The translations under genes were made by a program, and so were the position numbers. The notes below the pieces were generated by a model. The model was not told where the DNA came from. It saw nothing but the letters and a program-made list of their open reading frames with translations, and ran no database searches. This document shows, one piece after another, positions 10,127 through 64,000 of a DNA stretch of 64,000 nt (the first letter of the stretch is position 1; each line of letters begins with the position of its first letter). The stretch is from an uncultured Holophagales bacterium. Lineage in GTDB: Bacteria; Acidobacteriota; Thermoanaerobaculia; Multivoradales; UBA5704. The DNA is taken from NCBI GenBank assembly GCA_963842525.1, contig CAWJGT010000023.1, forward strand, positions 288,001 to 352,000. The letters are read 5' to 3'.

Positions 10127-10127
10127 G

Positions 10128-45503: not shown

Positions 45504-45533
45504 GGGGGCCTTGGAAGCCGCAGGAGCCATGGC

Positions 45534-47066: not shown

Positions 47067-47896
47067 CGATACTCCAACTCTAGCCCCATCTCCTCCATCC
47101 TCGTTCGGAGAGCCTTGCGAATTGCCTGCCGGGGCGGGCGGGCCCCGGTGGAAAGAACGGCGCGTTCAAAGGACCGGATGGACAGAGATCCCCAGATGTG
47201 CACTTCAACGAAACGGTCGTTCTCAGGATCGGCTCCCTGTTCCAAGAGTAAACCAGGGAAATCAGCCGGAGTCGTATCCTTGTGAATCCACTTGGTAAGC
47301 TTTGCGACACAGAGCTTGGCCCGCTCTCGCCACGGGGCGCGTTGCCCCGGAGGCAGCTTGTAACCGCGGTCGCGGAGGAACACAGCGGAGTTATCCTCAA
47401 ACACCGAAGCCCGGTGCGCGATCAGGTTCTCCCGGAGGACGAACGTGCAATCACCATAGCTCCGCAAGCCCATACCATCCAACGAAAGCGCCGCGAAACG
47501 GATCGGCTTCGCATAGAGAGGAAAAAGCTCCGCATCGGCCTTGACCCGTAGCCGGTCCCATTTGTCGCCGTAAGGCAGTTGAAGCCCGGCTTCGAGCCGT
47601 TGGTAAAAGCTTGAGTACAGTTGCCGATCCGAGGACGCCAAGCGTTCGACCTCAAGCAGCGGGCGATTGATGACCGCCTTCGAGGCGGTAATGGCGGCTT
47701 CGAAGCTCTCCAGGACATCGCGGCAACCCCGGCCAGCCGCGTCCTGAACTGCAGCCTGGTATCGACTATCCAGCGCTGCTGCCTCCAGTCGCGCTGCTTT
47801 GACATTCGGGACCTCGCCCGCTTGGTTGCAGTGCGGACAGTGCTCGACCTCCAGGGGGACATTATTCGCACAGAAACCGCAAGGGCTGGAGTCCAT
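47063..47896 (-). CDS. Zn-ribbon plus DUF3626-like protein
   Basis: CGFC..CPHC; IRFAALSL..SYGDCTFVL..RASVFEDNS..FVEVHIWG; stop overlaps the CHAT start. Confidence 0.65.
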   Translation of the reverse strand: MDSSPCGFCANNVPLEVEHCPHCNQAGEVPNVKAARLEAAALDSRYQAAVQDAAGRGCRDVLESFEAAITASKAVINRPLLEVERLASSDRQLYSSFYQRLEAGLQLPYGDKWDRLRVKADAELFPLYAKPIRFAALSLDGMGLRSYGDCTFVLRENLIAHRASVFEDNSAVFLRDRGYKLPPGQRAPWRERAKLCVAKLTKWIHKDTTPADFPGLLLEQGADPENDRFVEVHIWGSLSIRSFERAVLSTGARPPRQAIRKALRTRMEEMGLELEYR

Positions 47897-47917
47897 GATG
47901 GCTCATTGTAGAGCTTC

Positions 47918-48582
47918 TCAGCCCTGCCCTACTCGCCGTTGCTCCAACTCCCGCCGCAGCCGGGCCAACTCTTCCTCAGCGGCACGGCGTGCCGCAACCG
48001 CCTCCTCATACCGCAGGTACGGCTCGCCGGTCGCGGTGTCTACGACCCGGATCCGCTGCCCTTCCCGCCGGAGCGTCACGCCCGTGGTGCGGCTAATGAG
48101 CGAGCCGTCCGGCTCCGGGGCAACCTCTCGGTAGCGGCCGGATTCGAGCCGGAGGCCCTGGAGCGGCGGATCGAGGTATTCCTCGAAGGGATCAAAGAGG
48201 AAGTACTCCTCCACCCCGAGATCCGCGTAGGTCTTCCTCTTGCGGCCAAGGTCTTCGTCCCGGGTGTTGTCCGAGGTCACCTCGATTACCAGACAGGGCA
48301 CGCGGCCCTCTTCCTTCCAGAGCAGGTAGGTTCTGCGCGGCGGCTCTTTGGCCGCGCACGGCACGACGAAGAGGTCCGGCGCCACGACAGCGCGTGGGTT
48401 GCCCTGCTCGTAATAGAGGAAGAGGTTCCCAGCGACATACACATCCGGCTTCTCCCGAAAACGCTCTCGGAAGGCTTCGAGCAGGTACGTCATCTCCTGG
48501 ACGTGGAGAGCTCGGTTTCCGCCATCGGCTGGCCGTCGGACTCCGGATAGTCGACCGGACGCTGGAGAGGGATCGCGGCCAT
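47918..48582 (-). CDS. Uma2 family endonuclease; frameshift near 48510
   Basis: YPESDGQPMAE, VAPDLFVV, VIEVTS and GVEEYFLFDP. Confidence 0.92.
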
Positions 48583-48662
48583 GCGTGCCTTCCTTTCTCC
48601 GGTTGGTGCCCGAATCCCATCACAAGGACCGCCGGAACGCAACTCGCAGTATGATACCAGGC

Positions 48663-50559
<1,897 letters not shown>

Positions 50560-50643
50560 CGGAGGCTCCTCGGGCTCGGAGGGGGAAGACGAAAAAACCG
50601 CACCGGGGGTGGCGCGGCTTCGCAGGCAGAGGCGGAGATCTTC

Positions 50644-50730
50644 ATCGCTTCCCTACGCTGGCATGACCCAGGTCAGGTGATGAGGGTGGTCCCTGAAGGG
50701 ATCTCAGCCTTGCGGCCCCCCTAGCAGGGT
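50644..50730 (-). ncRNA. TPP riboswitch
   Basis: Minus strand GGGG..GGCTGAGA..ACCC..ACCTGACCTGGGTCATGCCAGCGTAGGGAAG upstream of thiC. Confidence 0.95.
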
Positions 50731-50732
50731 TC

Positions 50733-50760
50733 ATCCTACACCGGATGGGCAGGGAGTCAA
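50733..50760 (-). promoter_or_regulatory. Putative thiC sigma70 promoter
   Basis: Minus strand TTGACT-16 nt-TAGGAT immediately 5' of the riboswitch. Confidence 0.65.
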
Positions 50761-50866
50761 TGAGGCGCCGGAATCAGCACGGAACCAGCAGGAGCGGGTG
50801 GGTAGCGGTACACTCGTCGTCCGATCGAGGCACCGGCGGGCACCACCCCGTTGCCGGAAGCATTCC

Positions 50867-52120
50867 ATGGCCGAAGAGAGTGAGGAAACGCCGATGAAGG
50901 AGGTCTTCACCGACCCGGGTAGCGAGCTTTCGTTTGCCAGTGCTGGAGACTTGACACGGCAGCTCAGCGAAATGGACTCTTCCGTCCCAAGAAGAACGGA
51001 GGGACGGCGGTCGCATCACCGCGAGAGGTACTGCATCGTGCGCTACCTCACGGCTCTGGCTCGGTCGTCGCTGTTGAAGTTTCCCCTCCGGGTCGAGAAG
51101 TCGGAATCCCCGGACTTTCTTCTCCATCTGTCCGATGGAACTGTCGCTGGGATTGAGGTCACGGAAGCGGGAACAGAACGCTCGCAGCGTGCTGCAACCC
51201 AACTCGAGAAGAGCCCTCCCGGCTCTTTTCTGGAAGACGAAGATAAATTGAGGATGCCCGGTGAAGAGTTGCAAGGGCGGGTTTATGCAGGAAACGAGCC
51301 CGAGATCGAGCTGGCCAAGATCTTCCTCAAGGCAGTTATAGACAAAACCGGGGCGCTGAACCGGGGCCATTATACAGAAGCAGGCCGGTACGAGCTCCTG
51401 ATCTACGACAACAGCCATCTTGCCGTTCTCACCGATCTCGGAGGCCTGGCTCCCTTCTTGAAGCCTGCCTTGAACGAATGGCTCGCGCAAAGCCAGACGG
51501 AGAAAGCTTTCAGTGTGATCTCAGTATTGCGCGATTCTGAGCTGTTGTACGACTGCGCGGGAGCAAGCACTATCTTTGGGGTCGGTGACCTTCCCAACCT
51601 GCGGCTCACTCGTGGCGTCGTAGCCCCCGAGATTATCAAGGCAGCGGGACTGGCCTCCCAGAAGCTCCACGAGGCCAACATCCCCCATGCCCTCGCCGGA
51701 GGTCTTGCCGTGGGCGCCCATGGCTACCCGCGGACGACCGACGATGTGGACTTCCTGGTCGGCGATGAGGCGTTCGAGAAGCATGAGGGCGGCTTCGTGA
51801 CCCTGAAGGTACCCCTGATCGCCATCGGCAACGTCCGGATCGACTTCGTCTCGATCGATGAGTCGAAGGGCGAGGAACGACAGTTGCGTCCTGCAGTAGA
51901 GGAGCCGCCTCAAAGCAACGGAGTTCCGATCGTGCCGCTGCCTGCGCTGGTGTACATGAAGCTCAAGGCAGGAAGACAGAAGGACACCGCAGATCTGGTG
52001 GAGCTTCTGAAGCGTGGCAGAGTCGATCTCGAGGCGATGGATGAGTATCTCGAGGAGTATGCGCCGGAGCAGACCCGGCGCTGGCAAAGGGTCAAGGAAA
52101 TCGCAGCGCGAGAGGAGTAA
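50867..52120 (+). CDS. PD-(D/E)XK-like domain fused to a nucleotidyltransferase (DUF6036/AbiEii-like)
   Basis: ESPDFLL..GIEVTE; GGLAVGAHGYPRTTDDVDFLV and KLKAGRQKDTADL. Confidence 0.75.
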   Translation: MAEESEETPMKEVFTDPGSELSFASAGDLTRQLSEMDSSVPRRTEGRRSHHRERYCIVRYLTALARSSLLKFPLRVEKSESPDFLLHLSDGTVAGIEVTEAGTERSQRAATQLEKSPPGSFLEDEDKLRMPGEELQGRVYAGNEPEIELAKIFLKAVIDKTGALNRGHYTEAGRYELLIYDNSHLAVLTDLGGLAPFLKPALNEWLAQSQTEKAFSVISVLRDSELLYDCAGASTIFGVGDLPNLRLTRGVVAPEIIKAAGLASQKLHEANIPHALAGGLAVGAHGYPRTTDDVDFLVGDEAFEKHEGGFVTLKVPLIAIGNVRIDFVSIDESKGEERQLRPAVEEPPQSNGVPIVPLPALVYMKLKAGRQKDTADLVELLKRGRVDLEAMDEYLEEYAPEQTRRWQRVKEIAAREE

Positions 52121-52138
52121 GGCGCGCCCGACTAGACT

Positions 52139-52178
52139 TAGCAGGAGTTCATCCTACACCGATCAAGTGGGGAGTCAA
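52139..52178. repeat. Second copy of the thiC promoter region (direct repeat with 50722-50760)
   Basis: TAGCAGGAGTTCATCCTACACCG..GGGAGTCAA vs TAGCAGG-GTTCATCCTACACCG..GGGAGTCAA. Confidence 0.8.
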
Positions 52179-55100
52179 CGGACGGCAGGGGCAGGCATGG
52201 CGTGCCGGGATGGTGGAAGGAGGGGGCCTTCGTCGAGGCGGCGCCAGGCTTCCTGGATGAGGTCCTCGGGGCGCCAGAGCCAGCGCCGGACAGATGTCCC
52301 GACGATGCCCGCCAGCCATCTTCGGTCGGCCGAGAAGGCGAGGCCGGTCACGGAGGTCCCCGTGCTCGAAGTGGGAGACCTTGCGGCGGAGGACCAGGTC
52401 CCACACCTCGGTGGTCTCGTCCTCGAGAGCCGTGGCCGCGTACCTGCCCTGGGCATCCAGGGCGACACGAATCGGTTTCGCCGAATAGCTCGCAACCCAG
52501 GAGGGACAGGTCCCGCGTAGATTGCAGACCCACTGGGTCCCGTCGCGACGGGCTGCCACCAGGAGATCTCCTCGCGGGCTGAAGGCGTAGTGGCTGACCG
52601 TCGAACGCAGCGCGGCGACGATCGGCCGCGATCCGGCGTTGCGGATCACGACAAAGCCACCGTCAAAAGAGGCGGCGAGATGGCCTTCGTCGGCGCTCCA
52701 GGCGAGGCTGCGCAGCATGCCGCTCAGAGGAACGCGCTCGATCCGGGCCGCCTTCCCCCGCTCCAGGTCCAGGGACCAGATCTCCAGGGAGCGGCCGCGG
52801 TCCGGACCCATCATCGCGAGATACCTTCCCCGCGGGCTCATCTCGCCAGCGAGCATGCGGTGGTCTACCGGGATCTCCACGCGCGGACGCTCCTCGCCCG
52901 TCCTGCGGATTTCGATCCGCTCGCGCCCAAAGACGGCGAACAAGCGCTCCTGCCGGTCGAAGCTCACGTTGACGCTGAGCAGGGACGGTGCTGGGACCCT
53001 TCGCCCCGAAGGGATCTCCAGCATCCAGGAGTGTTCCCCAAAATCGCCTGCGAGGTACGCCCCCGTCGGGCTGAACGCGACATAGCCTTGCAGACCGCCG
53101 GAGAGGCGCTGGTCGAGGACCCGCTGCGCGGTCCGGATCTCCCAGACCTGGACACGATCGAGCATCGCCGCGGCGAAATATCTGCCGTCCTGGCTCATCG
53201 CGACCTTGCTGCCAGCGCTGCGTACCCCCAACGGTATGTCCTGCGGGCTCGGCGTCAGGTCCCAGACGTGGACCGCGTCCCTGCCGATCGTGCCGAAGGC
53301 CGCCAGGGAGTTGCCGTCCGCGCTGAATGCCAGGTCGCTACCGCCCCCTTGCAGGCGTGCGAGCTCCGCCCGGCTCGACAGATCCCAGAGCTGAACCCTG
53401 AACCGGTTCCCCGTCGCCAGCGTCTGGCCGTCGGGGCTGAAGGCGAGCGCCTCCGGCGCCTCGTCTCTCATCGGCAGGCGTGCGAGCTCGTGTTTACCGA
53501 GGACATCCCAGACGACGACCTCGTTGTCGGGCCCCGGACCCCGATCGACCAGGGCCGCGGCGAGGTGGTACGCATCGGGGCTCAGGGCGACGACCTCGAC
53601 GGCCTGGGACCACGTGCTCAGCCCCTTCGTCCGCGCTGTGAAGCGCGCGGTTTCTTTTCCGAGGTCGGTGTCGAAGAGGCGGACCTCCTCCGCTTCCCGG
53701 GTGGAGATCGCGATTGCGATCGAACGGCCGGCCATGGCCTGAGCCCTCTCGCGGCGTTGCTCTGGACGGTCCGTAAGGAGCAGACGGGAGGGTGGCTCCT
53801 GCGCCTCGGCAAGGTTCCAGATCTGGACCTCCCGCGCCTCCCGGTCTACGGCGAGGAATCGATTTCCCCCCGCGCTGAATGTGGCCGTATCTCCTTTGTA
53901 GGAGCCAAGCCTTCGGCAGTGCGGGTCCGGCGTCTCCCAGCCGTCGCAGATCCAGAGGGAGCCGTCGTGCCCAGCCAGCGCGAGGCGCCCTTGATGGAAG
54001 GCCATGGCTCGGCATCCCGTCGCCGTTGGATCGGGCAGGCTTCCGGCCCTGTGCAGCTTGCCGGCCAAGCTCCAGACTTCGATCCCCTGGTCATAGAGGG
54101 CGACGAGCCGTCCGTCCGGGCTGAACGCCATGGCCTTGGCCTCGAGACCCGAGGGAGCCCTGATCTTGGCCCTGAGGGGACGCACCAGTTCCATGCCCTT
54201 GCGGAGGGTGCGGTCGGCCTGGAGAGAGGCTGTTCCCAGGTCGGCGAGCCGGCGTAGCGACTCTGCCGCCAGTCGGACACTCTCATGCAGCGAGTCGAGG
54301 TCCCTGGTGCGGAGTGCTTCGGCGCGATTTGCCAGACCGAAGGCCTCAGCAAGGCGCTGCTGATGGACAGCCTCGACTCGGGCGCGGCCGGCATCGCGCA
54401 AGGCGGAGTCCCGGGCACCGCGGGCAGTTTCAGCCTCTTTCTTGAAGAGTTGGGAGTCCTTTAGTGCCTTCTCCCGTTCGCGACGCGCGTCTTCTGCCCT
54501 CCGCGCGGCGATCTTTGCACCCATCCGGGCCCACTTCTGCTCGAACTCGGTAGCCTCCCGGCGCTCCTCGGCCCCGCGGACCCGGAAAAGGGAATAGAGA
54601 GTTGCGACCACAATGATGGTTACAACCGCTCCGGTCACCCACGCGAGCACCTGACGCAGGCGACGGCTGCGGCTGACGAAGTCCTCGGCGCCGACAACCC
54701 GCTGGACGACCGCGTCTGAGACCACCCCTTCTTTCAGTGCAGAGAGTGGCTCCCTCTCCTCCGTGATTCCGCCGACGAGGTCGCGCCAGACCGCCACCTG
54801 GAGCGCCCCTTCGAAGTCGATGGGGATTGCCTGCCTTTCCAGCGGGTTGAACGCCACAATCTCTTTACGGACGTTCTCCGAGGCCGCCGCCGCGGGACCC
54901 GCAACGACGACGAGCATTGAGCTGTTCCTCGCCTGAGATAGGACCCTCGGAGAGACCGTGGTCCCAGGCGGTGAGCCGAGCCGGTCGTAGTAGCAAACGA
55001 GGCCTTCGCGGGCGAGCCTGCGGACGAGGGCCTCCGGATAGAGGGTTCCGTCTCTTCGACCGTAGGAGACGAAGACATCGTTGCCGAGAAGGAACCGGTA

Positions 55101-55187
55101 TAGTTTCCCATAGAGCTTGCCCATGGCCTCGTGCCAGGGCAGCCAGAGGAACACCCGGCGCAGGGCTCTCCGCAAGATGGCATCCAT
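52175..55187 (-). CDS. TIR-TM-coiled coil-WD40 repeat protein; frameshift near 52355
   Basis: DVFVSYGRRD..SENVRKEI TIR; one TM helix; many AFSPDG-type repeats; true C-terminus lies in the frame of ORF 52175..52495. Confidence 0.85.
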
Positions 55188-56176: not shown

Positions 56177-58057
56177 ATGTCCAATCGCGCGTGCAGGCTC
56201 GTCTTTTCCCTCAGCTTTCTGTTCCTTCTCGCCCTTCCCCTCACAGCTCAACAGCCCGCCTCTCCCATCCCCCGGGAGTGGCTCACTCCGGCCGAGGTCG
56301 CGGGCTTCGAGGCCACGCCGAGCTATGACGAGACGCTCGCCTTCCTGCGCAAGGTCCAGACCCGCCTGCCCGCGATGTACATCGGCACCTACGGCAGCTC
56401 CGGCGAGCACCGGCCGCTCCCCTTCGTCGTCGTCTCCAAGGACAAGGCCTTCACCGCCGACAAGGCCCGCCAGCTCGGCAAACCGATCGTCATGATCCAG
56501 AACGGCATCCACGCGGGCGAGATCGACGGCAAGGACGCATCCCTGATGATCCTCCGCGACATGGCCCTGGGCCGCCATGAGGAGATTGCGGAGATCCTCA
56601 ATGCCGTGACCCTGGTGATCGTGCCGATCTACAACGTCGACGGCCACGAGAAGGTCTCGCCCTACAACCGGGCAAACCAGGACGGGCCGCGCAAGGGCAT
56701 GGGCTTCCGGACCACCAGCAACGGGCTCGACCTCAACCGCGACTACCTGAAGCTCGCCTCCGAGGAAGCCCGCGCCCTGGTCGGCCTGATCGCGGACTGG
56801 CGCCCCCATCTCTTCGTGGACAACCATGTCACCGACGGGGTCGACCACGACTGGGTGCTGACCTGGTCCTGGGCCGAGGCGCCGCAGAGCCCGGCGCCGG
56901 TGGACGCGTGGATGCGCGCCCATCTGCCCGCCGCGCTCGCCAACACCGAAAAGGCCGGCCACCGCACCGGGCCGTACGTCGACTTGAAGGACCGCAACGA
57001 TCCCGCCAAAGGGTTCAGCTCCTGGGTCGGCGGGCCTCGCTATTCGTCCGGCTACCTGCCGCTCCGCAACCGCGCCGCGGTCCTGGTGGAGACGCACTCG
57101 TACAAACCCTACCGGCAGCGGGTGCTCGCCACGCGCGACTTCCTGGTCACCCTCCTCCTGGAGGCGGCGAACGACCCGCAGAGTCTGCGCAAGGCGGTCG
57201 CCGACGCCGAGGCCGCCACCGTGGCGATGGGACGGCCGGACGCTCCGCCCTCCGAGGTCGCCGTAGCGTACGACGAGAGCGAAACCGCGGACCGCATCCG
57301 CTTCCCCGTCTATGCCTGGGACATGAAGACCTCGGCCGTGACCGGCCAGCCGCTCCTGGTCTACCGCCGCGGCGAGGTCAAGGAGATCGAGGTCCCCTGG
57401 TACCACGCTCCGAAGGTGGCCAAGGCACTCCCCCGCCCGCGAGGCTACCTCGTGCTCCCCGGCTGGCCGCAGATCGAGCAGCGCCTGCAATGGCATGGGC
57501 TTCGATTCGAAAAGCTGACCGCGCCCGCCGAGCTCGAGGTCGAGACGCTGCGCGTGTCGAATCCCGATCCGGCCGATGGTCCCTACCAGGGCCTGACCCA
57601 GGTCTCGGCCCAGGTCGAGCACAGGACCGAGCGCCGGAAGATCCCCGCCGGCGCGCTCTGGGTCCCGGCCGACCAGCCCGACTTCGCCGTCGCCGTGCAC
57701 CTACTGGAGCCCGAGAGCCCCGACTCGCTCTTCGCCTGGGGTCTCCTCTCCACCGTCTTCGAACAGAAGGAGTACATGGACGCGAGGGTCCTGGAAGGGC
57801 ACGTGGCCGAGATGCTGAAGGACCCCAAGGTCGCCGCCGAATGGCAGGTCGCCCTCAAGGACGAGAAGCTCGCCGGCAATCCCTTCGCCCGCTATCGTTG
57901 GTGGTATCTGCGGACGCCGTATTGGGATGAGGCCGTGGGGCTGGTGCCGGTGTTCCGGGTCCTCAGTCCCTGGAATCCTTCAGCCCGGCCGGCGAAAACG
58001 GGACAGCACAAACCCTACGCCACCGGCGAGAAGCAAGACTCCGCCCATCAACCATGA
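56177..58057 (+). CDS. Secreted M14 zinc carboxypeptidase
   Basis: GIHAGEIDG, NVDG, DLNRD, VDNH and VETH motifs; signal peptide. Confidence 0.92.
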   Translation: MSNRACRLVFSLSFLFLLALPLTAQQPASPIPREWLTPAEVAGFEATPSYDETLAFLRKVQTRLPAMYIGTYGSSGEHRPLPFVVVSKDKAFTADKARQLGKPIVMIQNGIHAGEIDGKDASLMILRDMALGRHEEIAEILNAVTLVIVPIYNVDGHEKVSPYNRANQDGPRKGMGFRTTSNGLDLNRDYLKLASEEARALVGLIADWRPHLFVDNHVTDGVDHDWVLTWSWAEAPQSPAPVDAWMRAHLPAALANTEKAGHRTGPYVDLKDRNDPAKGFSSWVGGPRYSSGYLPLRNRAAVLVETHSYKPYRQRVLATRDFLVTLLLEAANDPQSLRKAVADAEAATVAMGRPDAPPSEVAVAYDESETADRIRFPVYAWDMKTSAVTGQPLLVYRRGEVKEIEVPWYHAPKVAKALPRPRGYLVLPGWPQIEQRLQWHGLRFEKLTAPAELEVETLRVSNPDPADGPYQGLTQVSAQVEHRTERRKIPAGALWVPADQPDFAVAVHLLEPESPDSLFAWGLLSTVFEQKEYMDARVLEGHVAEMLKDPKVAAEWQVALKDEKLAGNPFARYRWWYLRTPYWDEAVGLVPVFRVLSPWNPSARPAKTGQHKPYATGEKQDSAHQP

Positions 58058-58252
58058 AAGCCAGACCAGCAGACCGAAGCCGAGGGAGTTGCCTCCCTCC
58101 GGGCCGAAGGTGCGATCCAGCAAGAGCGGGACCGGACCTCCGATCATCAGGAGAACGCCGAGCACAAGCAGGGTCCAACTCGCGCCCCTGACGATCTTCG
58201 GGGTTTCGCCTTCCGGCGGGCTCGCCTCTTGATCGCTGTCGCTCGTGCTCAT
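57980..58252 (-). CDS. Small two-TM membrane protein
   Basis: Two hydrophobic segments; 3' end overlaps the convergent M14 gene. Confidence 0.5.
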   Translation of the reverse strand: MSTSDSDQEASPPEGETPKIVRGASWTLLVLGVLLMIGGPVPLLLDRTFGPEGGNSLGFGLLVWLSWLMGGVLLLAGGVGFVLSRFRRPG

Positions 58253-58339
58253 GGTGGTACAGGGGTGCAGTATAGACTCCCCCGCCAATGACGATCTGCG
58301 TCCTCGGCGCTTGGACCGGCGGCCGTCTTCTCTCACCTC

Positions 58340-59716
58340 ATGCCACGAAAAAAACTGCTCAGCCGGTTGGCCGCCCTGGATCCCCTGATTCCTGAAGCCT
58401 GCCTGACGCTGCTCTGGACCTGCTTCGAGGAGGTTGGGCTTTCCGCCGTGGAAAACGCCATGCGATCGAGGAGGATTCATCCCATACGGCTCGAAGCACA
58501 CCGCCCATCTGGGAGATCCATTCGCGATCTCCTGTCCGCCGGCGTCGAGGATCTGCGGGCCGCCGGTAACGCGGAGGACTTCGACCTGCTTGCCCTACGC
58601 TGGCTGAAATGGCTTGATATCTGGCTGGGGGAGGGAGAACTCGAGGACTTCGAGAGTGACAGATTTACAGGGCTCGACGGAAGGCTCTATGCCGTACGGC
58701 GCCGTAACGCCTTCCTCGCCTCCCACTACGAGGGATCAGGGGTCGCCGTTCGATGGAGCGCACATCAGGGCCTCTCCCTTGCGGCTTATTGCCGCAACTT
58801 CGTCGTCGTCCCCTGCGAGCCAGTGCACGGGCTACGCATCGTGCCGCGCGCTGCAGCCCGCTGGGGTACACCCTATCTGCACGACCGGCTTCGGATGGAG
58901 AGCGAGGATCTGCGGATCATGCTCTGGCCCCTCCGAACGGCTCTGGACTACCCCTCTCTCGCCGCTCTCCAGAGCTCTCCTCCGCCGACGTTCCTCAGCT
59001 TCGATCAGATCCGGAACGAGCCCGAACTCCAGGATGAGGTGCTGCAAGCGCTCACCATTGCCCGCCACGAGAGAGCGACGGTTCTCGTCTTTCCCGAGCT
59101 CGCGATTCCCCCGACCACGGAGCAAGGGATCCGACGCACCCTGGCCGGCCACGGCGTGGACGGCCACCCCATTCTCACCCTTTTCGGATGCTGCCACCGC
59201 CCGAACAGCCGGGGGGATCTTGACCTGAACGAGGCGGTTCTCCTCGGGTCGGACGGCTCCGAGCTCCACCGGCACCGCAAGCTCGCTCCGTTCACCGACT
59301 ACTCTTTCGGAGAGGAACACCCTTGTGGAGAAAGGCTGGAGCTCGGAACGGACGTGACCGTCCTGGAATCGGCACTCGGCAACCTCACACCGCTGATCTG
59401 CCTCGATCTGCTGAATGGGAGCGTCGCCGAGGCCCTCTACCGGAGTCACGCGAACCTCTTCGCCGTCCCTTCCCTCAGCCAAGAGACCAGGGCCCACCGG
59501 AGCGCCGCAAAGCGGCTCCAGGTGAGCCTTCAGGCTAGCACCTTCGTCTGCAACCGGTGGGTTGCCGCCCTTTCGGAGGAGCGCACGAGCTTCTTCCAGA
59601 TCCCGCGCCAGCAAGGTCTCGTCTGTCACCTCCCCGATCGCAGCGACAAGCCATACCTCCTCTTCGATCTTTCCGAGAGCCCAGGGGTGGACAAGTCAAC
59701 AATCCGGCAAGTATGA
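58340..59716 (+). CDS. Carbon-nitrogen hydrolase (nitrilase-fold) protein with a long N-terminal extension
   Basis: VLVFPEL (Glu), HRKL (Lys) and LICLD (Cys) catalytic triad; VPSLS and FVCN. Confidence 0.8.
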   Translation: MPRKKLLSRLAALDPLIPEACLTLLWTCFEEVGLSAVENAMRSRRIHPIRLEAHRPSGRSIRDLLSAGVEDLRAAGNAEDFDLLALRWLKWLDIWLGEGELEDFESDRFTGLDGRLYAVRRRNAFLASHYEGSGVAVRWSAHQGLSLAAYCRNFVVVPCEPVHGLRIVPRAAARWGTPYLHDRLRMESEDLRIMLWPLRTALDYPSLAALQSSPPPTFLSFDQIRNEPELQDEVLQALTIARHERATVLVFPELAIPPTTEQGIRRTLAGHGVDGHPILTLFGCCHRPNSRGDLDLNEAVLLGSDGSELHRHRKLAPFTDYSFGEEHPCGERLELGTDVTVLESALGNLTPLICLDLLNGSVAEALYRSHANLFAVPSLSQETRAHRSAAKRLQVSLQASTFVCNRWVAALSEERTSFFQIPRQQGLVCHLPDRSDKPYLLFDLSESPGVDKSTIRQV

Positions 59717-59733
59717 TGTCACCTGGTTGAGAG

Positions 59734-60705
59734 ATGATTGTCATGCTAGCAAGCCCGCCCATTCTCCTCGCGCTTTCGGTCTTCCGGGATGCTCCGCCCT
59801 CCGAGGTGGCGGACCTGCTCGAAAGAGCGGCTACCGAGCCGCAGGAGGAGGCGCTCTCGGCTCTTTCGGCTCTGCTGATGAACCGGACGCTGCGTCTGTT
59901 GCGCCAGGGATCGCGGCAGGAGATCCTCGAAGAGTCCTTGATGCTCAACCGCTTCCTGGCGATAGACGCCGGAGACCGGTTGCGGCGAGCTCGCCTCGAT
60001 GTGTCCAGCCGCTGGGCCGCTCTGGGAGAGCTCCTCTCGGGGGCCGCGCGCTCAACGAGCCGGGCGGCGGTCCCCTCGATCCTGAAGAGCACGCGGGGGC
60101 GCGGTCAGGAAATCCTGGAGCTGCTGGCCGGCGAGGGGCGTCCAGTCCCCCGGTCGGAGGTCAAGCGGCGCCTCGGCCTCGCGGAATCCCACCTCTCGCA
60201 CCTTCTCCGCGACTTGGAGGGAGCCAACCTTGTCGTCCGCTATCGCCCAGAGGGTGGAAAAGAGGTCCTAGTGGCCCTCGGCCCGGCCGGAGAGGAAGTG
60301 GTCGACGAGTCGGTATTGCCACCCTGGATCGAGAGGTTGGCAGAGGCTCTCGCCGCGGTCTCCCGCGGCGTTCGGATCGACGGAGAGGAACTCGCCCGAA
60401 GCCTGCACGACTCGGGCGCCCCATCCCGGCTCGCAGCCGGCAGGCTGGCCGAGGCGTTGGGGAAGCTGAGCCTCCCTTCCGAAGCTCCCGCCACCGGTTA
60501 TGCCGCAGCAGAGGACACAGATTCACCAGCTTCCGAGGCTGGGCAACGTCGCGAGGCTGCTCGCCGGACAACAGAGCGGGTAAAGGAAACGAACCCGCAC
60601 TTTGCCAACGTGCTGACCTTTCAGCGCGAACGGCGACCCGGCGCTCTCTTCTCCGCACCCGAGCCTGATGCGGGGCCGCGCTCGGCCGGTGCCGACGGCC
60701 GATGA
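59734..60705 (+). CDS. Protein with a central MarR-like winged-helix domain
   Basis: QEILELLA..VPRSEVKRRLGLAESHLSHLLRDLEGANLVVR..EVLVALGPAG. Confidence 0.75.
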   Translation: MIVMLASPPILLALSVFRDAPPSEVADLLERAATEPQEEALSALSALLMNRTLRLLRQGSRQEILEESLMLNRFLAIDAGDRLRRARLDVSSRWAALGELLSGAARSTSRAAVPSILKSTRGRGQEILELLAGEGRPVPRSEVKRRLGLAESHLSHLLRDLEGANLVVRYRPEGGKEVLVALGPAGEEVVDESVLPPWIERLAEALAAVSRGVRIDGEELARSLHDSGAPSRLAAGRLAEALGKLSLPSEAPATGYAAAEDTDSPASEAGQRREAARRTTERVKETNPHFANVLTFQRERRPGALFSAPEPDAGPRSAGADGR

Positions 60706-63700
60706 TCGTCACCTTCTATTCGTTCAAGGGCGGAGTCGGACGCAGCTCAGCTCTCGTCGAGGTCGCAGCACAGCTTGCCGCGCAAGGGCGGTCGGTCGTC
60801 GTCTGGGATCTGGACCTCGAAGCCCCGGGCCTCCAGAAAATGCCCGACCTCCAGTCGCTCGACCAGCGGCTCGAGATCGGTAGCCTCGACCTGCTCCTGG
60901 AATTTCAGAAGAACAACTACACCCTTCCCAGGGAAGGCGCTCTCCGTCGGGCCGTGATCGACCTTCCTCTCTACGGCCGGCTGGCGAAAGCGCAGGGGAG
61001 GCTCTCCTTCTTGCTTCCCGCCCGGCTCGACGACGGGTATGCAGCCAAGTTCAGCCAGGTGGACTGGGCGGCTCTCTTCGAACCGGAGGGAGCGGGCCCG
61101 GCGTTCTTTCACAGTCTCGCCGGCTCTCTCCTTCAAGAGCTGGGCTACGAGATCGTCCTCGTCGATTCGCGGACCGGTTATACCGACCTCGGAGCGGTCT
61201 GCACCTTACAGCTCCCCGACCTCGTGGTGCTCGTCTTCAACTTCAACGAGCAGAACCTCGCAGGCATCGAACGCGTCCATCTGGCCGTCACTCAGACCCC
61301 GGCGCGCCATTCGGGGACCATCCCGGTCTTCCTCCTGGCGAACATGCTCCCGGACCGGCCCCGCGAGCTGTACGCTCGGAAGAAGGAGGCCCTCGCCGCC
61401 AAGGGGCTCCGTCCGCACGCCGAAGTGATCCTCCGGCCCGAGCTTCTCCTGAGCGATCGAGTACCGACTCTGGCGGGGATGGACGAGGCCGCAGCGGCTC
61501 TGCGGCCCGTCGTCGAGGAGATCGAGAGTCGGATGCGCGAGCTCGAGGCCACGGCGGAGGCCGAGGCCCGCAGCCGGCTGAGCCGCGCAAAGTCGAGAGG
61601 CGACGAAGAGGAGCTCGAAACTTTGCGCCGGCGCGGCATCTACGAGAAGGCCAAGACTTTCGAGGACAAGGTCGCGGAGCTCTTCGCCCTGCTCGGCTAC
61701 CGCACGACGGTCGACTATAAGCGGGACGACCTCCAGCTCGACATCCGCCTGGAGGCGTCGTTCGGGTCCCTGCCGATCCATGCCCTCGTGGAGTGCAAGG
61801 ACACCGAACGGCCGGTCACGCAACAACAGGTCCGGGACTTTGCCTCCAAGGTGGAGTACGTGAGCCGGGTCGACAAGCGGCCGTATCAAGCCATCCTGGT
61901 CGCCCGCTCGGCCTTTGCAAATAACGCCCATACGGTGGCTGAGAACTTGCACGTTAACCTCCAGACCTTTCAGCATCTCCTCCTCTCTCTCGTCGATCTC
62001 CGTCCGAATCTGGAGGCGGCGACCCGAGCTTTCCAGGGAACACCCTTGGAGCGGCTCTACGTCGAGCAGAGCGTAGTGCTGGAGGCGGACATCCGGCCCG
62101 GCGAGGATCTCCACCCGCGTGGGCTCACCGACACGGTCCTCCAGTGGCTCGATCAGCCGGGAGACACTTTCCTAACTCTGCTCGGCGACTTCGGGTGCGG
62201 CAAGACGAGCTTCTGCAAGAGGCTTGCATGCGAGTTGGCCCAGCAGGCCAAGGAACGGCCGGACCAGGTCCGGACACCGGTGCTCATCGATCTGCGGGAA
62301 GGAGGCTCGACGACGGTCACGCTGGAAAACCTCCTCACCTATCACTTCCAGCGCCTCTCTTCGCAGCCGTTCAACCCCCAGGCCCTGCTCCACCTGAACC
62401 GGGAGGGCTACCTCCTCCTGATCTTCGACGGTTTCGACGAGACGATCGCCTATTCGGAACCGGGCCGCTATGTCGAGAACCTGCGGCAGATCCTGCGCGC
62501 CGCCGAGGGGAAGGCGAAGGTTCTTCTCACCTGCCGCACCCACTATTTCCGAGACCGCCCGGAGGCGCTGCGGCGCCTGGGCAAGGCGCCGGAGATTCCG
62601 ACGACGACCGGGGCGACCCGGCTTTACGAGGAAATCCAGGAGCGACCCGGCGCCGAGGTCGGCTATGTCCTTGAATTCGGTGAGGAACAGGTCCGGGAAT
62701 ACCTGCGTAAAGCCCTTCCGCCGCCAGCGGACCCGGAGGCGTTTCGCGAGCAGATCCGGCGTAGATACAACCTGGAAGACCTCGCCCAGCGTCCGGTCCT
62801 CTTGGAGATGATTGTCAAGACGCTGCCGCGGCTCACCGCCTTTGGCAATGGTGAGGTCTCGATTGCGGATCTCTATGAAGCCTATTGCGAGGGATGGTTC
62901 CAGCATACTGACTTCCGTCTCACCCTGACGCGGGAGCGCAAGGTGGCCTTGGTGGAGTACCTGGCGCGCTTGATCTGGGACTCCCCCGAGAACCGCGTCC
63001 ACTACGAGGTGCTGTCCGAGAAAGCGGCCGAGTTCTTCAAGGACCGTCCCTTCACGGTCTTCGAGCGGGAGCGTGTGGACTACGAGGTGCGCACGGCCCT
63101 CTTCCTCCGCCGCGACGCCGAGGGCCACTACTCTTTCATTCACCGCTCATTCCTCGAATTCTTCATCGCTCGCACTCTGCGGGCCGGGCTCGTAGCAGGG
63201 AATCCGGGCTGCCTGGACCTGCGCCGGCTGACGCGAGAGGTGGTCTTCTTTCTGGAGCTCTGGGCGGAGGCACAAAGGATTCCTGACCTCAGTTGCAAGG
63301 TGTTGGAGCAGGATTACCGGCCCCGGATCTCCGAAAACGCGCTTCTCCTGCTCTACCTCCACGCCCGGGCATCTCTGGGGCCGCTCCTTGGCACGGGTGC
63401 GGAAGGGGATGACGGGCAAGCAGACCTGGGAAGGGTGCGGGAGGTATTTCAGCGGACACGTCCAAGAGCTCTTCGGCTCGAAGGAGCGGACCTCGAAGGA
63501 GTGATGCTGGCCGGGGCGGATTTGAGCGGGGCCTCGCTCATCGCGGCCCGGCTGGCCGGGGCGGACTTGCGGGAGGCCTCTCTCGACGGTGCCTGCCTCG
63601 CGAGAGCATTCCTCTCTTCCGCCGACCTAAGGCGTGCTTCGGCATTGAACGCGGATTTCAGTGAAGCCAATCTGGATCACGTGGATGCCCAAGAGGCGAT

Positions 63701-64000
63701 CCTCCAAAGGGCAAACCTCCATGGAGCGAATCTCTGCTTCGCCCGGTTCACTCGGGCGAATTTACTGGAATCCGACTTGGGCGATGTCCTTGCAGATGGG
63801 GCTGGATTCCTCAAGTCCGAGATGTCCCCAGGTTGGGAGCTGTCTTCCACAACCGGTGCGATCGAGCCGCGCGTCTTGGAGCTTCGCGCCCAGGTTGGAC
63901 ATTCCTCTAAGGTTACTCGCCTAGCCTGGATGCCCGGAGGTAGAATTATCGCTTCCACATCTCTTGATGGCGCAATCCTTCTCTTAGATGCCGTTTCGGG
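60702..64000 (+). CDS. NLR-like STAND protein: ParA-like ATPase, Mrr-type REase, NACHT, pentapeptide and WD40 repeats (open at the right edge)
   Basis: My translation: MIVTFYSFKGGVGRS, DLDLEAPGL, LVDSRTG; FEDKVAELF..LDI..LVECK; GDFGCGKT (62184), LIFDGFDE, LLTCRTHYF; LEGADL/LAGADL repeats; GHSSKVTRLAW..IASTSLDG. Start, Walker A and WD40 are in the same frame. Confidence 0.9.
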   Translation, partial: MIVTFYSFKGGVGRSSALVEVAAQLAAQGRSVVVWDLDLEAPGLQKMPDLQSLDQRLEIGSLDLLLEFQKNNYTLPREGALRRAVIDLPLYGRLAKAQGRLSFLLPARLDDGYAAKFSQVDWAALFEPEGAGPAFFHSLAGSLLQELGYEIVLVDSRTGYTDLGAVCTLQLPDLVVLVFNFNEQNLAGIERVHLAVTQTPARHSGTIPVFLLANMLPDRPRELYARKKEALAAKGLRPHAEVILRPELLLSDRVPTLAGMDEAAAALRPVVEEIESRMRELEATAEAEARSRLSRAKSRGDEEELETLRRRGIYEKAKTFEDKVAELFALLGYRTTVDYKRDDLQLDIRLEASFGSLPIHALVECKDTERPVTQQQVRDFASKVEYVSRVDKRPYQAILVARSAFANNAHTVAENLHVNLQTFQHLLLSLVDLRPNLEAATRAFQGTPLERLYVEQSVVLEADIRPGEDLHPRGLTDTVLQWLDQPGDTFLTLLGDFGCGKTSFCKRLACELAQQAKERPDQVRTPVLIDLREGGSTTVTLENLLTYHFQRLSSQPFNPQALLHLNREGYLLLIFDGFDETIAYSEPGRYVENLRQILRAAEGKAKVLLTCRTHYFRDRPEALRRLGKAPEIPTTTGATRLYEEIQERPGAEVGYVLEFGEEQVREYLRKALPPPADPEAFREQIRRRYNLEDLAQRPVLLEMIVKTLPRLTAFGNGEVSIADLYEAYCEGWFQHTDFRLTLTRERKVALVEYLARLIWDSPENRVHYEVLSEKAAEFFKDRPFTVFERERVDYEVRTALFLRRDAEGHYSFIHRSFLEFFIARTLRAGLVAGNPGCLDLRRLTREVVFFLELWAEAQRIPDLSCKVLEQDYRPRISENALLLLYLHARASLGPLLGTGAEGDDGQADLGRVREVFQRTRPRALRLEGADLEGVMLAGADLSGASLIAARLAGADLREASLDGACLARAFLSSADLRRASALNADFSEANLDHVDAQEAILQRANLHGANLCFARFTRANLLESDLGDVLADGAGFLKSEMSPGWELSSTTGAIEPRVLELRAQVGHSSKVTRLAWMPGGRIIASTSLDGAILLLDAVS

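What the first reader, a model, noticed from the sequence alone, without database searches (positions are those of the whole stretch)
58340..64000. Candidate undescribed defence operon: nitrilase + wHTH + ParA-REase-NACHT-pentapeptide-WD40 NLR
Seen: three co-oriented genes with a 17-nt gap and then an ATGA overlap. Gene 1 has an intact E-K-C nitrilase triad behind about 200 aa of unknown sequence. Gene 2 has a wHTH. Gene 3 is a giant ORF missing from the ORF track. Known: bacterial NACHT/STAND proteins (Avs, bNACHT) sense phage through C-terminal repeats and fire N-terminal effectors such as Mrr-like nucleases, and nitrilase domains occur in some defence-associated reverse transcriptase systems (DRT1). 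Inference: the three genes act as one immune module with a nuclease output plus an amidase partner under wHTH control. I do not recognise this combination as a named system.
Basis: partly seen in the sequence, partly recalled or inferred. Interest (0 to 1): 0.82.

Follow-up and report, generated by a model that had tools for sequence, protein, structure and literature searches.

The report
Nitrilase, wHTH and ParA-NACHT immune operon
Three tightly linked genes in a soil Acidobacterium (a nitrilase-type enzyme, a DNA-binding protein, and a giant ParA-nuclease-NACHT-WD40 receptor) form a conserved, portable module of a predicted but untested bacterial immune type first described in an October 2026 preprint.

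Summary
Gene 1 (58340-59716) is a nitrilase-superfamily protein with an intact E253/K314/C354 triad behind a 185-aa N-domain of unknown fold. Gene 2 (59734-60705) is a MarR-like wHTH protein. Gene 3 (60702 onwards) runs off the window and is 1728 aa: KGGVGR-type ParA, Mrr-like REase with D-ExK intact, NACHT, pentapeptide repeats, about 14 WD40 blades.

The module is conserved. In 36 nitrilase-anchored loci the wHTH gene follows directly in 31. ParA-NACHT follows in 13 of 26 loci with enough sequence. In the reverse test, 11 of 11 ParA-bearing REase-NACHT genes have the nitrilase-family gene upstream. Among close ParA-less relatives, 0 of 10 do. The flanks are not syntenic.

It is no longer unnamed. 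Li, Burroughs and Aravind (bioRxiv, October 2026) describe "TA-ParA" ternary systems, subtype (i): C-N hydrolase toxin, HTH antitoxin and ParA-sensor, where the sensor may be NACHT plus beta-propeller. This locus meets every sequence criterion I could test.

Function is untested anywhere. The best reading is an abortive-infection module with a cis nuclease and a trans nitrilase released through ParA. It is a new member of a known, predicted kind.

The parts
58340..59716 (+). Gene 1 (458 aa). N-terminal domain of unknown fold (residues 1-185, nt 58340-58894) plus a nitrilase-superfamily (C-N hydrolase) domain (residues 186-449) with triad E253/K314/C354. Predicted trans effector or 'toxin'.
   Evidence: The family is small: 174 representatives at E<=1e-30 among 1.84 billion.
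59688..59717 (+). Promoter-like site (TGGACA, 18 nt, TATGAT; 10 of 12) at the end of gene 1, just upstream of gene 2. It could be an internal promoter for genes 2-3. This is weak evidence.
   Evidence: 1 site found in 57800-60800 against 0.3 +/- 0.5 in shuffles. A consensus match only.
59734..60705 (+). Gene 2 (323 aa; alternative start 59743 gives 320 aa). Helical N-domain (about 1-120), MarR-like winged HTH (about 120-195), helical C-domain (about 197-246), then a disordered tail ending in an R/P...(L/A/Q)(F/W/L) motif. Predicted antitoxin, repressor or adaptor.
60702..61599 (+). Gene 3, residues 1-300: ParA-like SIMIBI NTPase of the KGGVGR type. KGGVGRS at 9-15 has Arg14 in place of the Walker A Lys. 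DLDLEAPG at 36-43. Walker B at 151-159.
   Evidence: (NF047398, 141.8 bits). The ConB2 signature is as stated in the preprint.
61650..61979 (+). Gene 3, residues 317-426: Mrr-like PD-(D/E)xK restriction-endonuclease domain with E321...D347...E364-x-K366 intact. Predicted cis effector.
   Evidence: Mrr_cat 44.4 bits, while NA-iREase1 scores 21.3 bits, below its cut-off of 27; the motif is kept in 6 of 6 orthologues..
62079..63401 (+). Gene 3, residues about 460-900: NACHT STAND NTPase module. Walker A GDFGCGKTS at 495-503 and Walker B LLLIFDGFDE at 571-580.
63459..63821 (+). Gene 3, residues about 920-1040: pentapeptide-repeat beta-helix.
63888..64000 (+). Gene 3 from residue 1063: start of the WD40 propellers (1063-1635, about 14 blades). 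A conserved C-terminal tail follows, and the gene ends 1888 nt beyond the window (contig position 353888). Predicted sensor.

Best explanation
The locus is a three-gene conflict (anti-phage or anti-mobile-element) module of the 'TA-ParA' type.

Proposed mechanism:
1. Gene 3 is the receptor and switch. Its pentapeptide and WD40 repeats sense an invader-derived or infection-induced cue.
2. The NACHT NTPase then oligomerises.
3. This fires the Mrr-like nuclease carried in cis.
4. Through the N-terminal ParA-type NTPase, it also remodels a complex of the wHTH protein (gene 2) with the nitrilase-superfamily enzyme (gene 1).
5. The freed nitrilase hydrolyses an essential amide- or amine-bearing molecule. 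The substrate is unknown.
6. The outcome is growth arrest or death of the infected cell.

The ParA domain is the part that couples the receptor to the nitrilase-wHTH pair. The block nitrilase + wHTH + ParA behaves as a portable cassette on an otherwise self-sufficient REase-NACHT-WD40 backbone.

Shown here: the architecture, the intact catalytic and NTP-binding motifs, the conserved gene order and 4-nt coupling, and the strict ParA/nitrilase association. Inferred: sensing, activation, toxicity, neutralisation by the wHTH protein, and the immune role.
For: (1) All domains are present with catalytic motifs intact.

(2) Nitrilase-anchored neighbourhoods (counted). Of 36 loci with a nitrilase match at E<=1e-15, 31 have the wHTH gene directly downstream on the same strand. 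One contig ends too early. The four without it are short or fragmentary contigs. Of 26 loci with at least 1.9 kb beyond the wHTH gene, 13 carry ParA-NACHT. Two more hold deletion remnants of gene 3 (L024, L033).

(3) Reverse test anchored on REase-NACHT (flanks in 93, 103; analysis in 94-97, 104). All 11 ParA-bearing genes have a nitrilase-family gene upstream. Seven of these are loci not seen before. None of 10 ParA-less or other-N-terminus relatives with at least 2.5 kb upstream do, although four of them are 71-75% identical to the window's REase-NACHT.

(4) In the REase-NACHT tree (31 rows), ParA-plus and ParA-minus rows interleave. The window's smallest well-supported set holds 5 plus and 4 minus (98/96). 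The well-supported (starred) branches force at least 3 changes.

(5) The wHTH stop overlaps the gene 3 start by 4 nt in the window and in most ParA-plus loci.

(6) None of the window's flanking genes recurs in 46 other loci. The nitrilase was found in 0 of 400 other genomes sampled from the phylum. The REase-NACHT was found in 0 of 5 same-genus genomes.

(7) The neighbourhood holds PIN-PhoH, CHAT, Uma2, AbiEii-like and TIR-WD40 genes.

(8) Precedents from papers, read as passages only. A nitrilase domain is the abortive-infection effector of DRT1, with substrate unknown (PMC13275509). bNACHT25 carries a predicted Mrr-like REase effector (10.1101/2022.07.19.500537).

(9) The preprint's model for TA-ParA systems is the same (sections 24 and 26 read in full).
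Against: There is no experimental datum for this family anywhere. Toxicity of the nitrilase, binding to the wHTH protein and phage protection are all untested.

Half of the informative nitrilase-wHTH pairs (13 of 26) have no ParA-NACHT next to them. They sit instead beside an MFS transporter (L014), a short KGGVGK ParA plus a solute symporter (L032), asparaginase (L037-L039), cytochromes (L041/42/47, one sequence seen three times) or giant TPR proteins (L049, L051). The pair can therefore live without the receptor, and some of these neighbours look metabolic.

Several loci are near-duplicates (L025/L026, L038/L039, L041/L042/L047), and the genomes are related. The counts overstate independent events.

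Arg in place of the Walker A Lys raises the question of whether the ParA domain hydrolyses ATP at all.

In two distant ParA-plus loci (L141, L144) my wHTH profile found no match.
Confidence: 0.6

Rival explanations
1. The module and immune role are the same, but the wHTH protein is only a DNA-binding partner and not a protein antitoxin. It would be an autorepressor of the operon, or a ParB/TubR-like DNA adaptor whose C-terminal tail talks to the ParA domain. The nitrilase would be a second effector switched on directly by ParA-NACHT.
For: The wHTH core is MarR-like: best match 4xrf_A, Z 12.9, rmsd 2.4, 80 aligned. The plasmid-partition adaptor TubR (4asn_A, Z 12.4) ties with it. ParA-plus loci have long disordered wHTH tails ending in an R/P...(L/A/Q)(F/W/L) motif, and the ParA-less pairs mostly do not (a qualitative reading). 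In one genome the first ~100 residues of the wHTH protein are fused in frame in front of REase-NACHT, in the place of ParA (L140).
Against: Nitrilase-wHTH pairs persist with an intact triad where ParA-NACHT is absent. That is what a self-contained toxin-antitoxin pair would do. No operator-like inverted repeat was found upstream of gene 1. The tail motif is loosely defined.
Confidence: 0.2
2. The nitrilase-wHTH pair is a small metabolic or detoxification regulon: an amidase with a MarR-type ligand-responsive regulator. Its link to the receptor gene would reflect signalling, with the enzyme making or destroying a small molecule, and not toxicity.
For: The closest solved folds are ordinary amidases: yeast Nit2, Nesterenkonia amidase, D-carbamoylase and the NAD synthetase glutaminase domain, Z 19-21. 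ParA-less pairs neighbour transporters and asparaginase. The preprint proposes a messenger-generating role for asparaginase-family enzymes in other ParA systems (section 36 read in full).
Against: There is a strict 11 of 11 against 0 of 10 association with the ParA graft. Genes 2 and 3 overlap by 4 nt. The distribution is patchy and non-syntenic. The nitrilase and wHTH proteins diverge much faster than housekeeping proteins: 45% and 53% identity to the locus L012, against 91-96% for RpoB over the aligned pieces in the same genome. The family-specific N-domain has no match.
Confidence: 0.12
3. Chance juxtaposition: an independent two-gene unit lying next to an independent bNACHT-type defence gene.
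For: Both halves exist on their own elsewhere. There are nitrilase-wHTH pairs without a receptor, and REase-NACHT-WD40 genes without ParA or a nitrilase.
Against: The ParA domain and the nitrilase-wHTH pair come and go together in every locus tested from the receptor side. The gene order and the 4-nt overlap are conserved from 76% down to about 33% REase-NACHT identity.
Confidence: 0.03

Closest known systems
TA-ParA ternary systems, subtype (i): C-N hydrolase toxin + HTH antitoxin + ParA-sensor (Li, Burroughs and Aravind, bioRxiv 10.64898/2026.10.19.760177, Oct 2026; in silico only)
   Same: The three components and their order match. The ParA is of the ConB2 kind (Arg for the Walker A Lys, PG after sensor-1). 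The sensor can be a whole NACHT module with a beta-propeller. The proposed logic is the same: ParA acts as the switch that releases the toxin.
   Different: The text I could read does not mention the intact Mrr-like REase between ParA and NACHT, nor the pentapeptide repeats. I could not see the figures or supplements, so this exact architecture may be drawn there.

New here:
- The all-or-none link between the ParA graft and the nitrilase-wHTH pair among close REase-NACHT relatives.
- Repeated gain or loss of the block.
- Deletion remnants.
- The 185-aa N-domain of the nitrilase.
Bacterial NACHT (bNACHT) defence proteins, e.g. bNACHT25 with a predicted Mrr-like REase effector (Kibby et al., 10.1101/2022.07.19.500537; passages read)
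   Same: An N-terminal REase effector, a central NACHT and C-terminal repeat sensors. The ParA-less relatives found here (L132, L133, L135, L136) have exactly this single-gene layout.
   Different: The window's protein carries an extra ParA NTPase in front of the effector. It is always accompanied by two upstream genes. Its sensor is pentapeptide plus about 14 WD40 blades.
DRT1 (class 3 UG/Abi reverse transcriptase fused to a nitrilase; PMC13275509; passages read)
   Same: A nitrilase-superfamily domain with an intact catalytic centre serves as the abortive-infection effector, and the substrate is unknown. The PADLOC RT-associated nitrilase model gives a weak hit (E 1e-4).
   Different: None of the three genes gave a reverse-transcriptase hit. 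The nitrilase is a free-standing protein with its own N-domain. It is presumably controlled by a wHTH protein and ParA, not by DNA adducts and filaments.
Reverse-order type II toxin-antitoxin pairs with an HTH antitoxin (HigBA, MqsRA; named in the preprint, section 24)
   Same: The toxin gene comes first and the HTH protein second. The pair also occurs alone.
   Different: Both proteins are far larger (458 and 323 aa). The toxin is an amidase-type enzyme. No toxicity or neutralisation has been shown.
TIR-ParA systems (same preprint, section 25)
   Same: A ParA of the same KGGVGR kind is grafted onto a STAND NTPase, with an effector gene just upstream. The same genome has one: TIR, then ParA-nSTAND1-TPR-S, with a 4-nt overlap (L060).
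   Different: The upstream effector there is a TIR domain, and there is no wHTH gene.

Membership tests
TA-ParA system, C-N hydrolase subtype (preprint 10.64898/2026.10.19.760177) | ParA domain of the ConB2 assemblage: Arg in place of the Walker A Lys, and a PG motif after sensor-1 | tested here: met
   KGGVGRS at 9-15 and DLDLEAPG at 36-43, conserved in 6 of 6 orthologues. The criterion is as worded in the preprint. NF047398 scores 141.8 bits against a cut-off of 90. No phylogeny against the preprint's own tree was possible.
TA-ParA system, C-N hydrolase subtype (preprint 10.64898/2026.10.19.760177) | An adjacent gene for a C-N hydrolase 'toxin' | tested here: met
   CN_hydrolase scores 36.2 bits against 23.2. 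The fold matches at Z 21.0. The E-K-C triad is kept.
TA-ParA system, C-N hydrolase subtype (preprint 10.64898/2026.10.19.760177) | An HTH 'antitoxin' gene in the same operon | tested here: met
   HTH_27 scores 27.7 bits against 22.2. The gene follows the nitrilase in 31 of 36 loci.
TA-ParA system, C-N hydrolase subtype (preprint 10.64898/2026.10.19.760177) | ParA fused to a C-terminal sensor, here a NACHT STAND module plus a beta-propeller | tested here: met
TA-ParA system, C-N hydrolase subtype (preprint 10.64898/2026.10.19.760177) | Conserved three-gene neighbourhood across genomes | tested here: met
   13 of 26 nitrilase-anchored loci and 11 of 11 ParA-REase-NACHT-anchored loci.
TA-ParA system, C-N hydrolase subtype (preprint 10.64898/2026.10.19.760177) | Toxin-antitoxin behaviour and release by ParA | not testable with these tools
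   No experiment exists for this family. The structure-based binding test gave no verdict (see Tried and rejected).
NACHT-clade STAND NTPase (bNACHT) | NACHT module with Walker A and B, flanked by an N-terminal effector and C-terminal repeats | tested here: met
   NACHT scores 40.1 bits against 26.7. GDFGCGKTS at 495-503 and LLLIFDGFDE at 571-580. REase lies in front, pentapeptide and WD40 behind.
NACHT-clade STAND NTPase (bNACHT) | Protection against phage | not testable with these tools
   Needs a bench test.
Nitrilase superfamily | Alpha-beta-beta-alpha sandwich fold with a Glu-Lys-Cys catalytic triad | tested here: met
   AF2 pLDDT 94.8. Foldseek E 2.9e-12 to 4hg3_A. VIA Z 21.0, rmsd 3.0, 226 aligned to 4hgd_B. 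E253, K314 and C354.
Active Mrr-like PD-(D/E)xK nuclease, as against NA-iREase1 (the inactive NACHT-associated REase) | Catalytic D...(E/Q)xK retained | tested here: met
   D347 and E364-x-K366 are present and kept in 6 of 6 orthologues. Mrr_cat scores 44.4 bits, above its cut-off of 21. NA-iREase1 scores 21.3, below its cut-off of 27. Activity itself is untested.
PADLOC candidate system PDC-M28 | Both components (A and B) present | tested here: inconclusive
   Only PDC-M28B matches, and only over the ParA domain (E 2.1e-27, residues 3-218). No PDC-M28A hit appears among the three proteins at E<=0.1. I could not see what component A is.
DRT1 / UG-Abi class 3 | Reverse transcriptase domain joined to the nitrilase | tested here: not met
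   No RT family appears among the Pfam, NCBIfam or PADLOC hits of the three genes. There is only a weak hit to the RT-associated nitrilase model (E 1e-4).

The most novel reading that the evidence does not exclude
The ParA domain is a physical coupler that lets an NLR-like receptor command a trans-encoded enzyme-inhibitor pair. The block [nitrilase + wHTH + ParA] would be a plug-in cassette, repeatedly gained and lost on self-sufficient REase-NACHT-WD40 receptors. It would turn a one-shot nuclease receptor into a two-armed one: DNA cleavage plus hydrolysis of an essential amide-bearing metabolite or macromolecule. The wHTH protein's C-terminal tail would act as the ParA-contact peptide, in the way ParB or MinE peptides act on ParA or MinD.
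Probability: 0.35. Interest if true: 0.7.

Novelty: new member of a known kind. Interest (0 to 1): 0.5.

Why it matters
No member of this predicted class has been tested at the bench. This locus gives a clean, complete example with every catalytic motif intact. It also comes with natural controls: near-identical receptors in sister genomes that lack ParA, the nitrilase and the wHTH gene. Those pairs make three open questions directly testable:
- What does a ParA NTPase do in front of an NLR-type receptor?
- How is a nitrilase-superfamily enzyme used as an immune effector, and on what substrate? The substrate is also unknown for DRT1.
- Can STAND receptors control effectors encoded in trans?

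The interest is moderate and not high, because the architecture has been catalogued in print.

Tried and rejected
- Complex prediction, nitrilase plus wHTH: no verdict (scores 0.18 and 0.20 against a mark of 0.32; controls were not run). This counts neither for nor against binding.
- Sequencing runs: no RNA holder listed. One soil-metagenome DNA run holds a small share (0.13) of the sampled words. I did not lay any reads.
- N-domain of the nitrilase (residues 1-188) in the ESM Atlas: best score 0.79, which is chance level.
- wHTH model against the PDB (Foldseek; VIA wide): only generic MarR/ArsR/TubR-type wHTH matches over residues 102-206. The helical N- and C-domains were barely tested.
- REase domain against PDB sequences: 0 hits at E<=1. 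The window part of gene 3 against PDB sequences: only pentapeptide, WD40 and one weak ParA-like match.
- Inverted repeats upstream of gene 1: none. No operator is proposed.
- Synteny: none of nine flanking proteins of the window recurs in 46 other loci.
- Matching 'longest contig' lengths between the hit tables, done by eye. 15 of 33 ParA-bearing gene 3 homologues share a contig length with a nitrilase or wHTH hit, against 1 of about 14 ParA-less ones. This is only a heuristic, and the direct neighbourhood tests supersede it.
- PADLOC: no named system. DefenseFinder was not available.
- Literature. 'KGGVGR' occurs in one unrelated paper. Searches on NACHT/nitrilase/conflict systems and on C-N hydrolase/TA/ParA/STAND returned only the one preprint that describes this combination. 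The Nature 2026 STAND survey (PMC13581612, passages) does not mention ParA grafts or hydrolase partners in the passages shown.
Full report
**1. What is in the window**

Three co-oriented ORFs lie at 58340-59716, 59734-60705 and 60702 onwards. The gap between genes 1 and 2 is 17 nt, or 26 nt if gene 2 starts at Met4 as in the 320-aa form P0096. Genes 2 and 3 overlap by 4 nt.

Gene 3 is open at the window end. The window is G000:C23:288001-352000, and in the contig the frame runs to 1728 aa without any N. Local G+C is 62-68%, like the surroundings.

**2. Domains**

Gene 1:
- CN_hydrolase scores 36.2 bits against a cut-off of 23.2.
- The AlphaFold2 model built on 81 homologues has pLDDT 94.8.
- Foldseek and VIA-align place a nitrilase-superfamily fold at residues 186-449. 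The best matches are yeast Nit2 (4hgd_B: Z 21.0, rmsd 3.0, 226 aligned), then the Nesterenkonia amidase, D-carbamoylase and the glutaminase domain of NAD synthetase at Z 19-20.
- E253 and K314 are invariant, and C354 is kept in at least 90% of the 81 sequences.
- Residues 1-185 form a well-modelled helical and alpha/beta N-domain that matched nothing informative.

Gene 2:
- It has a MarR-like wHTH at about 120-195, between helical N- and C-domains, followed by a disordered tail.

Gene 3:
- A KGGVGR-motif ParA-like NTPase (NF047398, 141.8 bits against 90).
- An Mrr-like REase. Mrr_cat scores 44.4 bits. The 'inactive' NA-iREase1 model scores only 21.3 bits, below its cut-off of 27. D347 and E364-x-K366 are present and kept in 6 of 6 orthologues.
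- A NACHT module with Walker A at 495-503 and Walker B at 571-580.
- Pentapeptide repeats at about 920-1040.
- WD40 propellers at 1063-1635.

PADLOC-DB v2 gives only domain-level hits: PDC-M28B over the ParA domain, the ZorD Mrr domain, and an RT-associated nitrilase model at E 1e-4.

**3. Is the trio a unit? Test from the nitrilase side**

The nitrilase family is small: 92 hits in the word-indexed search, and 174 representatives at E<=1e-30 among 1.84 billion.

Pattern scans gave 11 loci in species-representative genomes, of which 7 are true family members (L012-L018, all from Acidobacteriota MAGs). They gave 35 loci in metagenomes.

I counted with one script, using a nitrilase tblastn threshold of E<=1e-15. 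This gave 36 loci:
- 31 have the wHTH gene directly downstream on the same strand.
- 1 contig ends too early (L030).
- 4 lack it. All four are short contigs with fragmentary nitrilase matches (L043, L046, L048, L052).

Of 26 loci with at least 1.9 kb beyond the wHTH gene, 13 carry ParA plus NACHT. The other 13 are:

| Locus | What follows the wHTH gene |
|---|---|
| L024 | Only the last ~50 codons of gene 3, at 84% identity (a deletion remnant) |
| L033 | Gene 3 from mid-NACHT onwards (a deletion remnant) |
| L014 | MFS transporter |
| L032 | Short classical KGGVGK ParA, then a solute symporter |
| L038, L039 (and the short L037) | Asparaginase |
| L041, L042, L047 | One sequence seen three times; unknown protein and cytochromes |
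| L049, L051 | Giant TPR proteins without a ParA motif |
| L045, L050 | No identifiable domain (L045) or not examined (L050) |

L025/L026 and L038/L039 are near-duplicates.

The catalytic triad is kept wherever the alignment covers it. The exception is L018, where a deletion removed the nitrilase C-terminus and the wHTH N-terminus.

**4. Reverse test from the receptor side**

I searched 400 genomes of the class and 299 other genomes of the order with the REase-NACHT part of gene 3 alone. I then fetched wider flanks and scanned them with profiles of the nitrilase and wHTH alignments.

ParA-bearing genes with upstream sequence available: L102-L105, L131, L134, L138, L139, L141, L143 and L144.
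- 11 of 11 have a nitrilase-family gene upstream (62-603 bits).
- L102's nitrilase aligns only over the first 271 of 442 profile positions and may be broken.
- A wHTH gene was detected in 9 of the 11.

Relatives without ParA, or with another N-terminus, and with at least 2.5 kb upstream: L108, L132, L133, L135, L136, L137, L140, L142, L145 and L148.
- 0 of 10 have a nitrilase.
- L132, L133, L135 and L136 are 71-75% identical to the window's REase-NACHT. That is as close as the ParA-bearing ones.
- L146 and L147 (too little upstream sequence) and L106 and L107 (contig ends) were uninformative.

A maximum-likelihood tree of the REase-NACHT region (31 rows) interleaves the two states. Rows left out were the frameshifted L012/L143, the duplicates L026, L131, L138 and L139, and the partial L106 and L107. 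The window's smallest well-supported set has 5 ParA-plus and 4 ParA-minus rows (98/96). The well-supported (starred) branches force at least 3 changes of the ParA label.

So the block [nitrilase, wHTH, ParA] is gained or lost as one piece on an otherwise autonomous REase-NACHT-pentapeptide-WD40 receptor. Related genomes are not independent, so I give no P-value.

**5. Mobility and rate of change**

- The C-terminal 709 residues of RpoB are 91-96% identical, in the frameshifted pieces that align, to the genome behind L012 (a Thermoanaerobaculaceae MAG by its record title). They are 86% identical to the genome behind L017 and 82% to the one behind L016. The host is therefore an Acidobacterium of the Thermoanaerobaculia type.
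- Against L012 the module itself is only 45% (nitrilase), 53% (wHTH), 62% (ParA), 81% (REase) and 72-74% (NACHT) identical.
- Across the ParA-plus loci the nitrilase (33-53%), the wHTH protein (33-55%) and the WD40 sensor (30-53%) are the fastest-changing parts.
- None of nine flanking proteins recurs near the module elsewhere.
- The nitrilase was not found in 400 other genomes sampled from the phylum.
- The receptor was not found at E<=1e-60 in 5 same-genus genomes.
- The own genome has a single copy of the nitrilase and three KGGVGR proteins over the cut-off.

**6. Context**

Upstream lie five conflict-type genes, then an M14 peptidase and a small divergent membrane protein:
- PIN-PhoH (44124-45503)
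- CHAT protease (45534-47066, minus strand)
- Uma2 nuclease-like protein (47918-48493, minus strand)
- AbiEii-like nucleotidyltransferase (50798-52120)
- TIR-WD40 protein (52149-55187, minus strand)

This looks like a conflict island, though none of these genes travels with the module.

**7. What is known**

The decisive source is Li, Burroughs and Aravind, bioRxiv 10.64898/2026.10.19.760177 (22 Oct 2026). I read the outline, sections 20, 24, 26 and 36 in full, and searched passages. I could not see the figures or supplements.

The preprint states the following:
- The ParA 'ConB2' assemblage has an Arg replacing the Walker A Lys and a PG motif after sensor-1.
- 'TA-ParA' ternary systems extend a type II TA pair with a ParA fused to a sensor. 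[quoted passage not shown] - In the proposed model, the sensor signals to ParA, which reorganises the toxin-antitoxin complex.

Every sequence-level criterion is met here (see Membership tests). The work is purely computational.

Two experimental precedents make the parts plausible. Both were read as passages only.
- In DRT1 a nitrilase domain is the abortive-infection effector. It needs oligomerisation, and its substrate is unknown (PMC13275509).
- bNACHT25 has a predicted Mrr-like REase effector (10.1101/2022.07.19.500537).

My literature searches turned up no other description of this combination.

**8. Mechanism and its rivals**

I commit to the two-armed abortive-infection reading given under Best explanation, with confidence 0.6. 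The module's unity is close to certain. The immune role is likely. The 'toxin neutralised by wHTH' step is about even odds.

The main rival keeps the immune role but makes the wHTH protein a DNA-bound adaptor or repressor instead of an antitoxin (0.2). It draws on three observations:
- The partition adaptor TubR ties with MarR proteins in the fold search.
- The tail motif is seen in ParA-plus loci.
- L140 has the wHTH N-domain fused directly in front of REase-NACHT.

A metabolic or signalling reading of the nitrilase-wHTH pair (0.12) rests on the transporter and asparaginase neighbours of ParA-less pairs. Chance juxtaposition is all but excluded (0.03).

**9. Verdict**

I file it as a new member of a known, in-silico-predicted kind.

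- The all-or-none ParA/nitrilase association among near-identical receptors.
- Evidence for repeated gain, loss and decay of the cassette.
- The intact cis nuclease.
- The extra N-domain of the nitrilase.

Interest: 0.5.

Noticed in passing
window 44124-55187: A run of conflict-type genes upstream of the module: PIN-PhoH (44124-45503), CHAT protease (45534-47066, minus), Uma2 nuclease-like protein matching PADLOC PDC-S03 (47918-48493, minus), AbiEii-like nucleotidyltransferase (50798-52120) and a 1012-aa TIR-WD40 protein (52149-55187, minus).
   Followed up: partly
L060 (G000:C1:741001-757000) 6242-7510 and 7507-11094: The same genome carries a second KGGVGR-ParA system. A TIR gene overlaps by 4 nt a 1195-aa ParA-nSTAND1-TPR-S gene, which is the 'TIR-ParA, STAND fusion' layout of the preprint.
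   Followed up: partly
L061 (G000:C24:58001-76000) 6743-9271, minus strand: The third KGGVGR protein of the genome (842 aa, 129 bits to NF047398) has no Pfam domain behind the ParA part at E<=1e-4. The 389-aa ORF upstream also has none.
   Followed up: no
P0326, P0328, P0332, P0333; L137 (G936:C2:649501-658500): Close relatives (61-66% identity) of the REase-NACHT-pentapeptide part are fused to non-ribosomal peptide synthetase domains (condensation, AMP-binding, PP-binding, by precomputed Pfam). None of the four lists a WD40 family. They lack ParA and have no nitrilase upstream. This is an odd NLR-NRPS fusion.
   Followed up: no
L140 (G789:C199:1-5000) 2514-5000: The first ~100 residues of the wHTH protein family are fused in frame directly in front of REase-NACHT. 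There is no ParA, and no nitrilase in the 2.5 kb upstream. This is either a deletion product or a sign that this helical domain docks on the receptor.
   Followed up: no
L037 3303-3920; L038 4542-6689; L039 9280-11427: In one clade (36-37% nitrilase identity) the nitrilase-wHTH pair is followed by an asparaginase gene, not ParA-NACHT. That is a second amidohydrolase. The preprint links asparaginases to other ParA and V4R systems.
   Followed up: partly
L049 11696-15694; L051 3483-9086: Distant nitrilase-wHTH pairs (33-34% identity over the catalytic half) are followed by 1332-aa and 1867-aa TPR proteins in which I found no KGGxG[KR] motif.
   Followed up: partly
L018 9980-11631; L024 13588-13740; L033 12198-14195; L102 5605-6741: Decay products of the module:
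- L018: an internal deletion joins a truncated nitrilase to a truncated wHTH gene.
- L024: only the last ~50 codons of gene 3 are left.
- L033: gene 3 starts in mid-NACHT.
- L102: the nitrilase aligns only over its first 271 of 442 profile positions.

Some of these may be assembly errors. The genome behind L012 is full of frameshifts.
   Followed up: partly
window 59688-59717: The only sigma-70-like promoter match in 57800-60800 lies in the last codons of gene 1, 17 nt before gene 2. It could give genes 2-3 their own transcript.
   Followed up: no
window 60500-60705 (C-terminal tail of gene 2) and the wHTH genes of the ParA-plus loci: The disordered tail of the wHTH protein ends in a loosely conserved R/P...(L/A/Q)(F/W/L) motif a few residues from the C-terminus in ParA-plus loci. 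Most ParA-less pairs lack it. It could be a ParA-contact peptide. This is only a qualitative reading.
   Followed up: partly
window 57980-58252, minus strand: A small divergent ORF (about 90 aa from the ATG at 58252) with two hydrophobic stretches starts 87 nt upstream of gene 1. It is not conserved next to the module elsewhere.
   Followed up: partly
P0366: A Hyalangium minutum (Myxococcota) protein of 1698 aa matches residues 1-900 of gene 3 over 98% of that stretch at 29% identity. NCBI names it 'KGGVGR-motif variant AAA ATPase'. The ParA-REase-NACHT layout therefore reaches beyond Acidobacteriota. Its neighbours were not examined.
   Followed up: no
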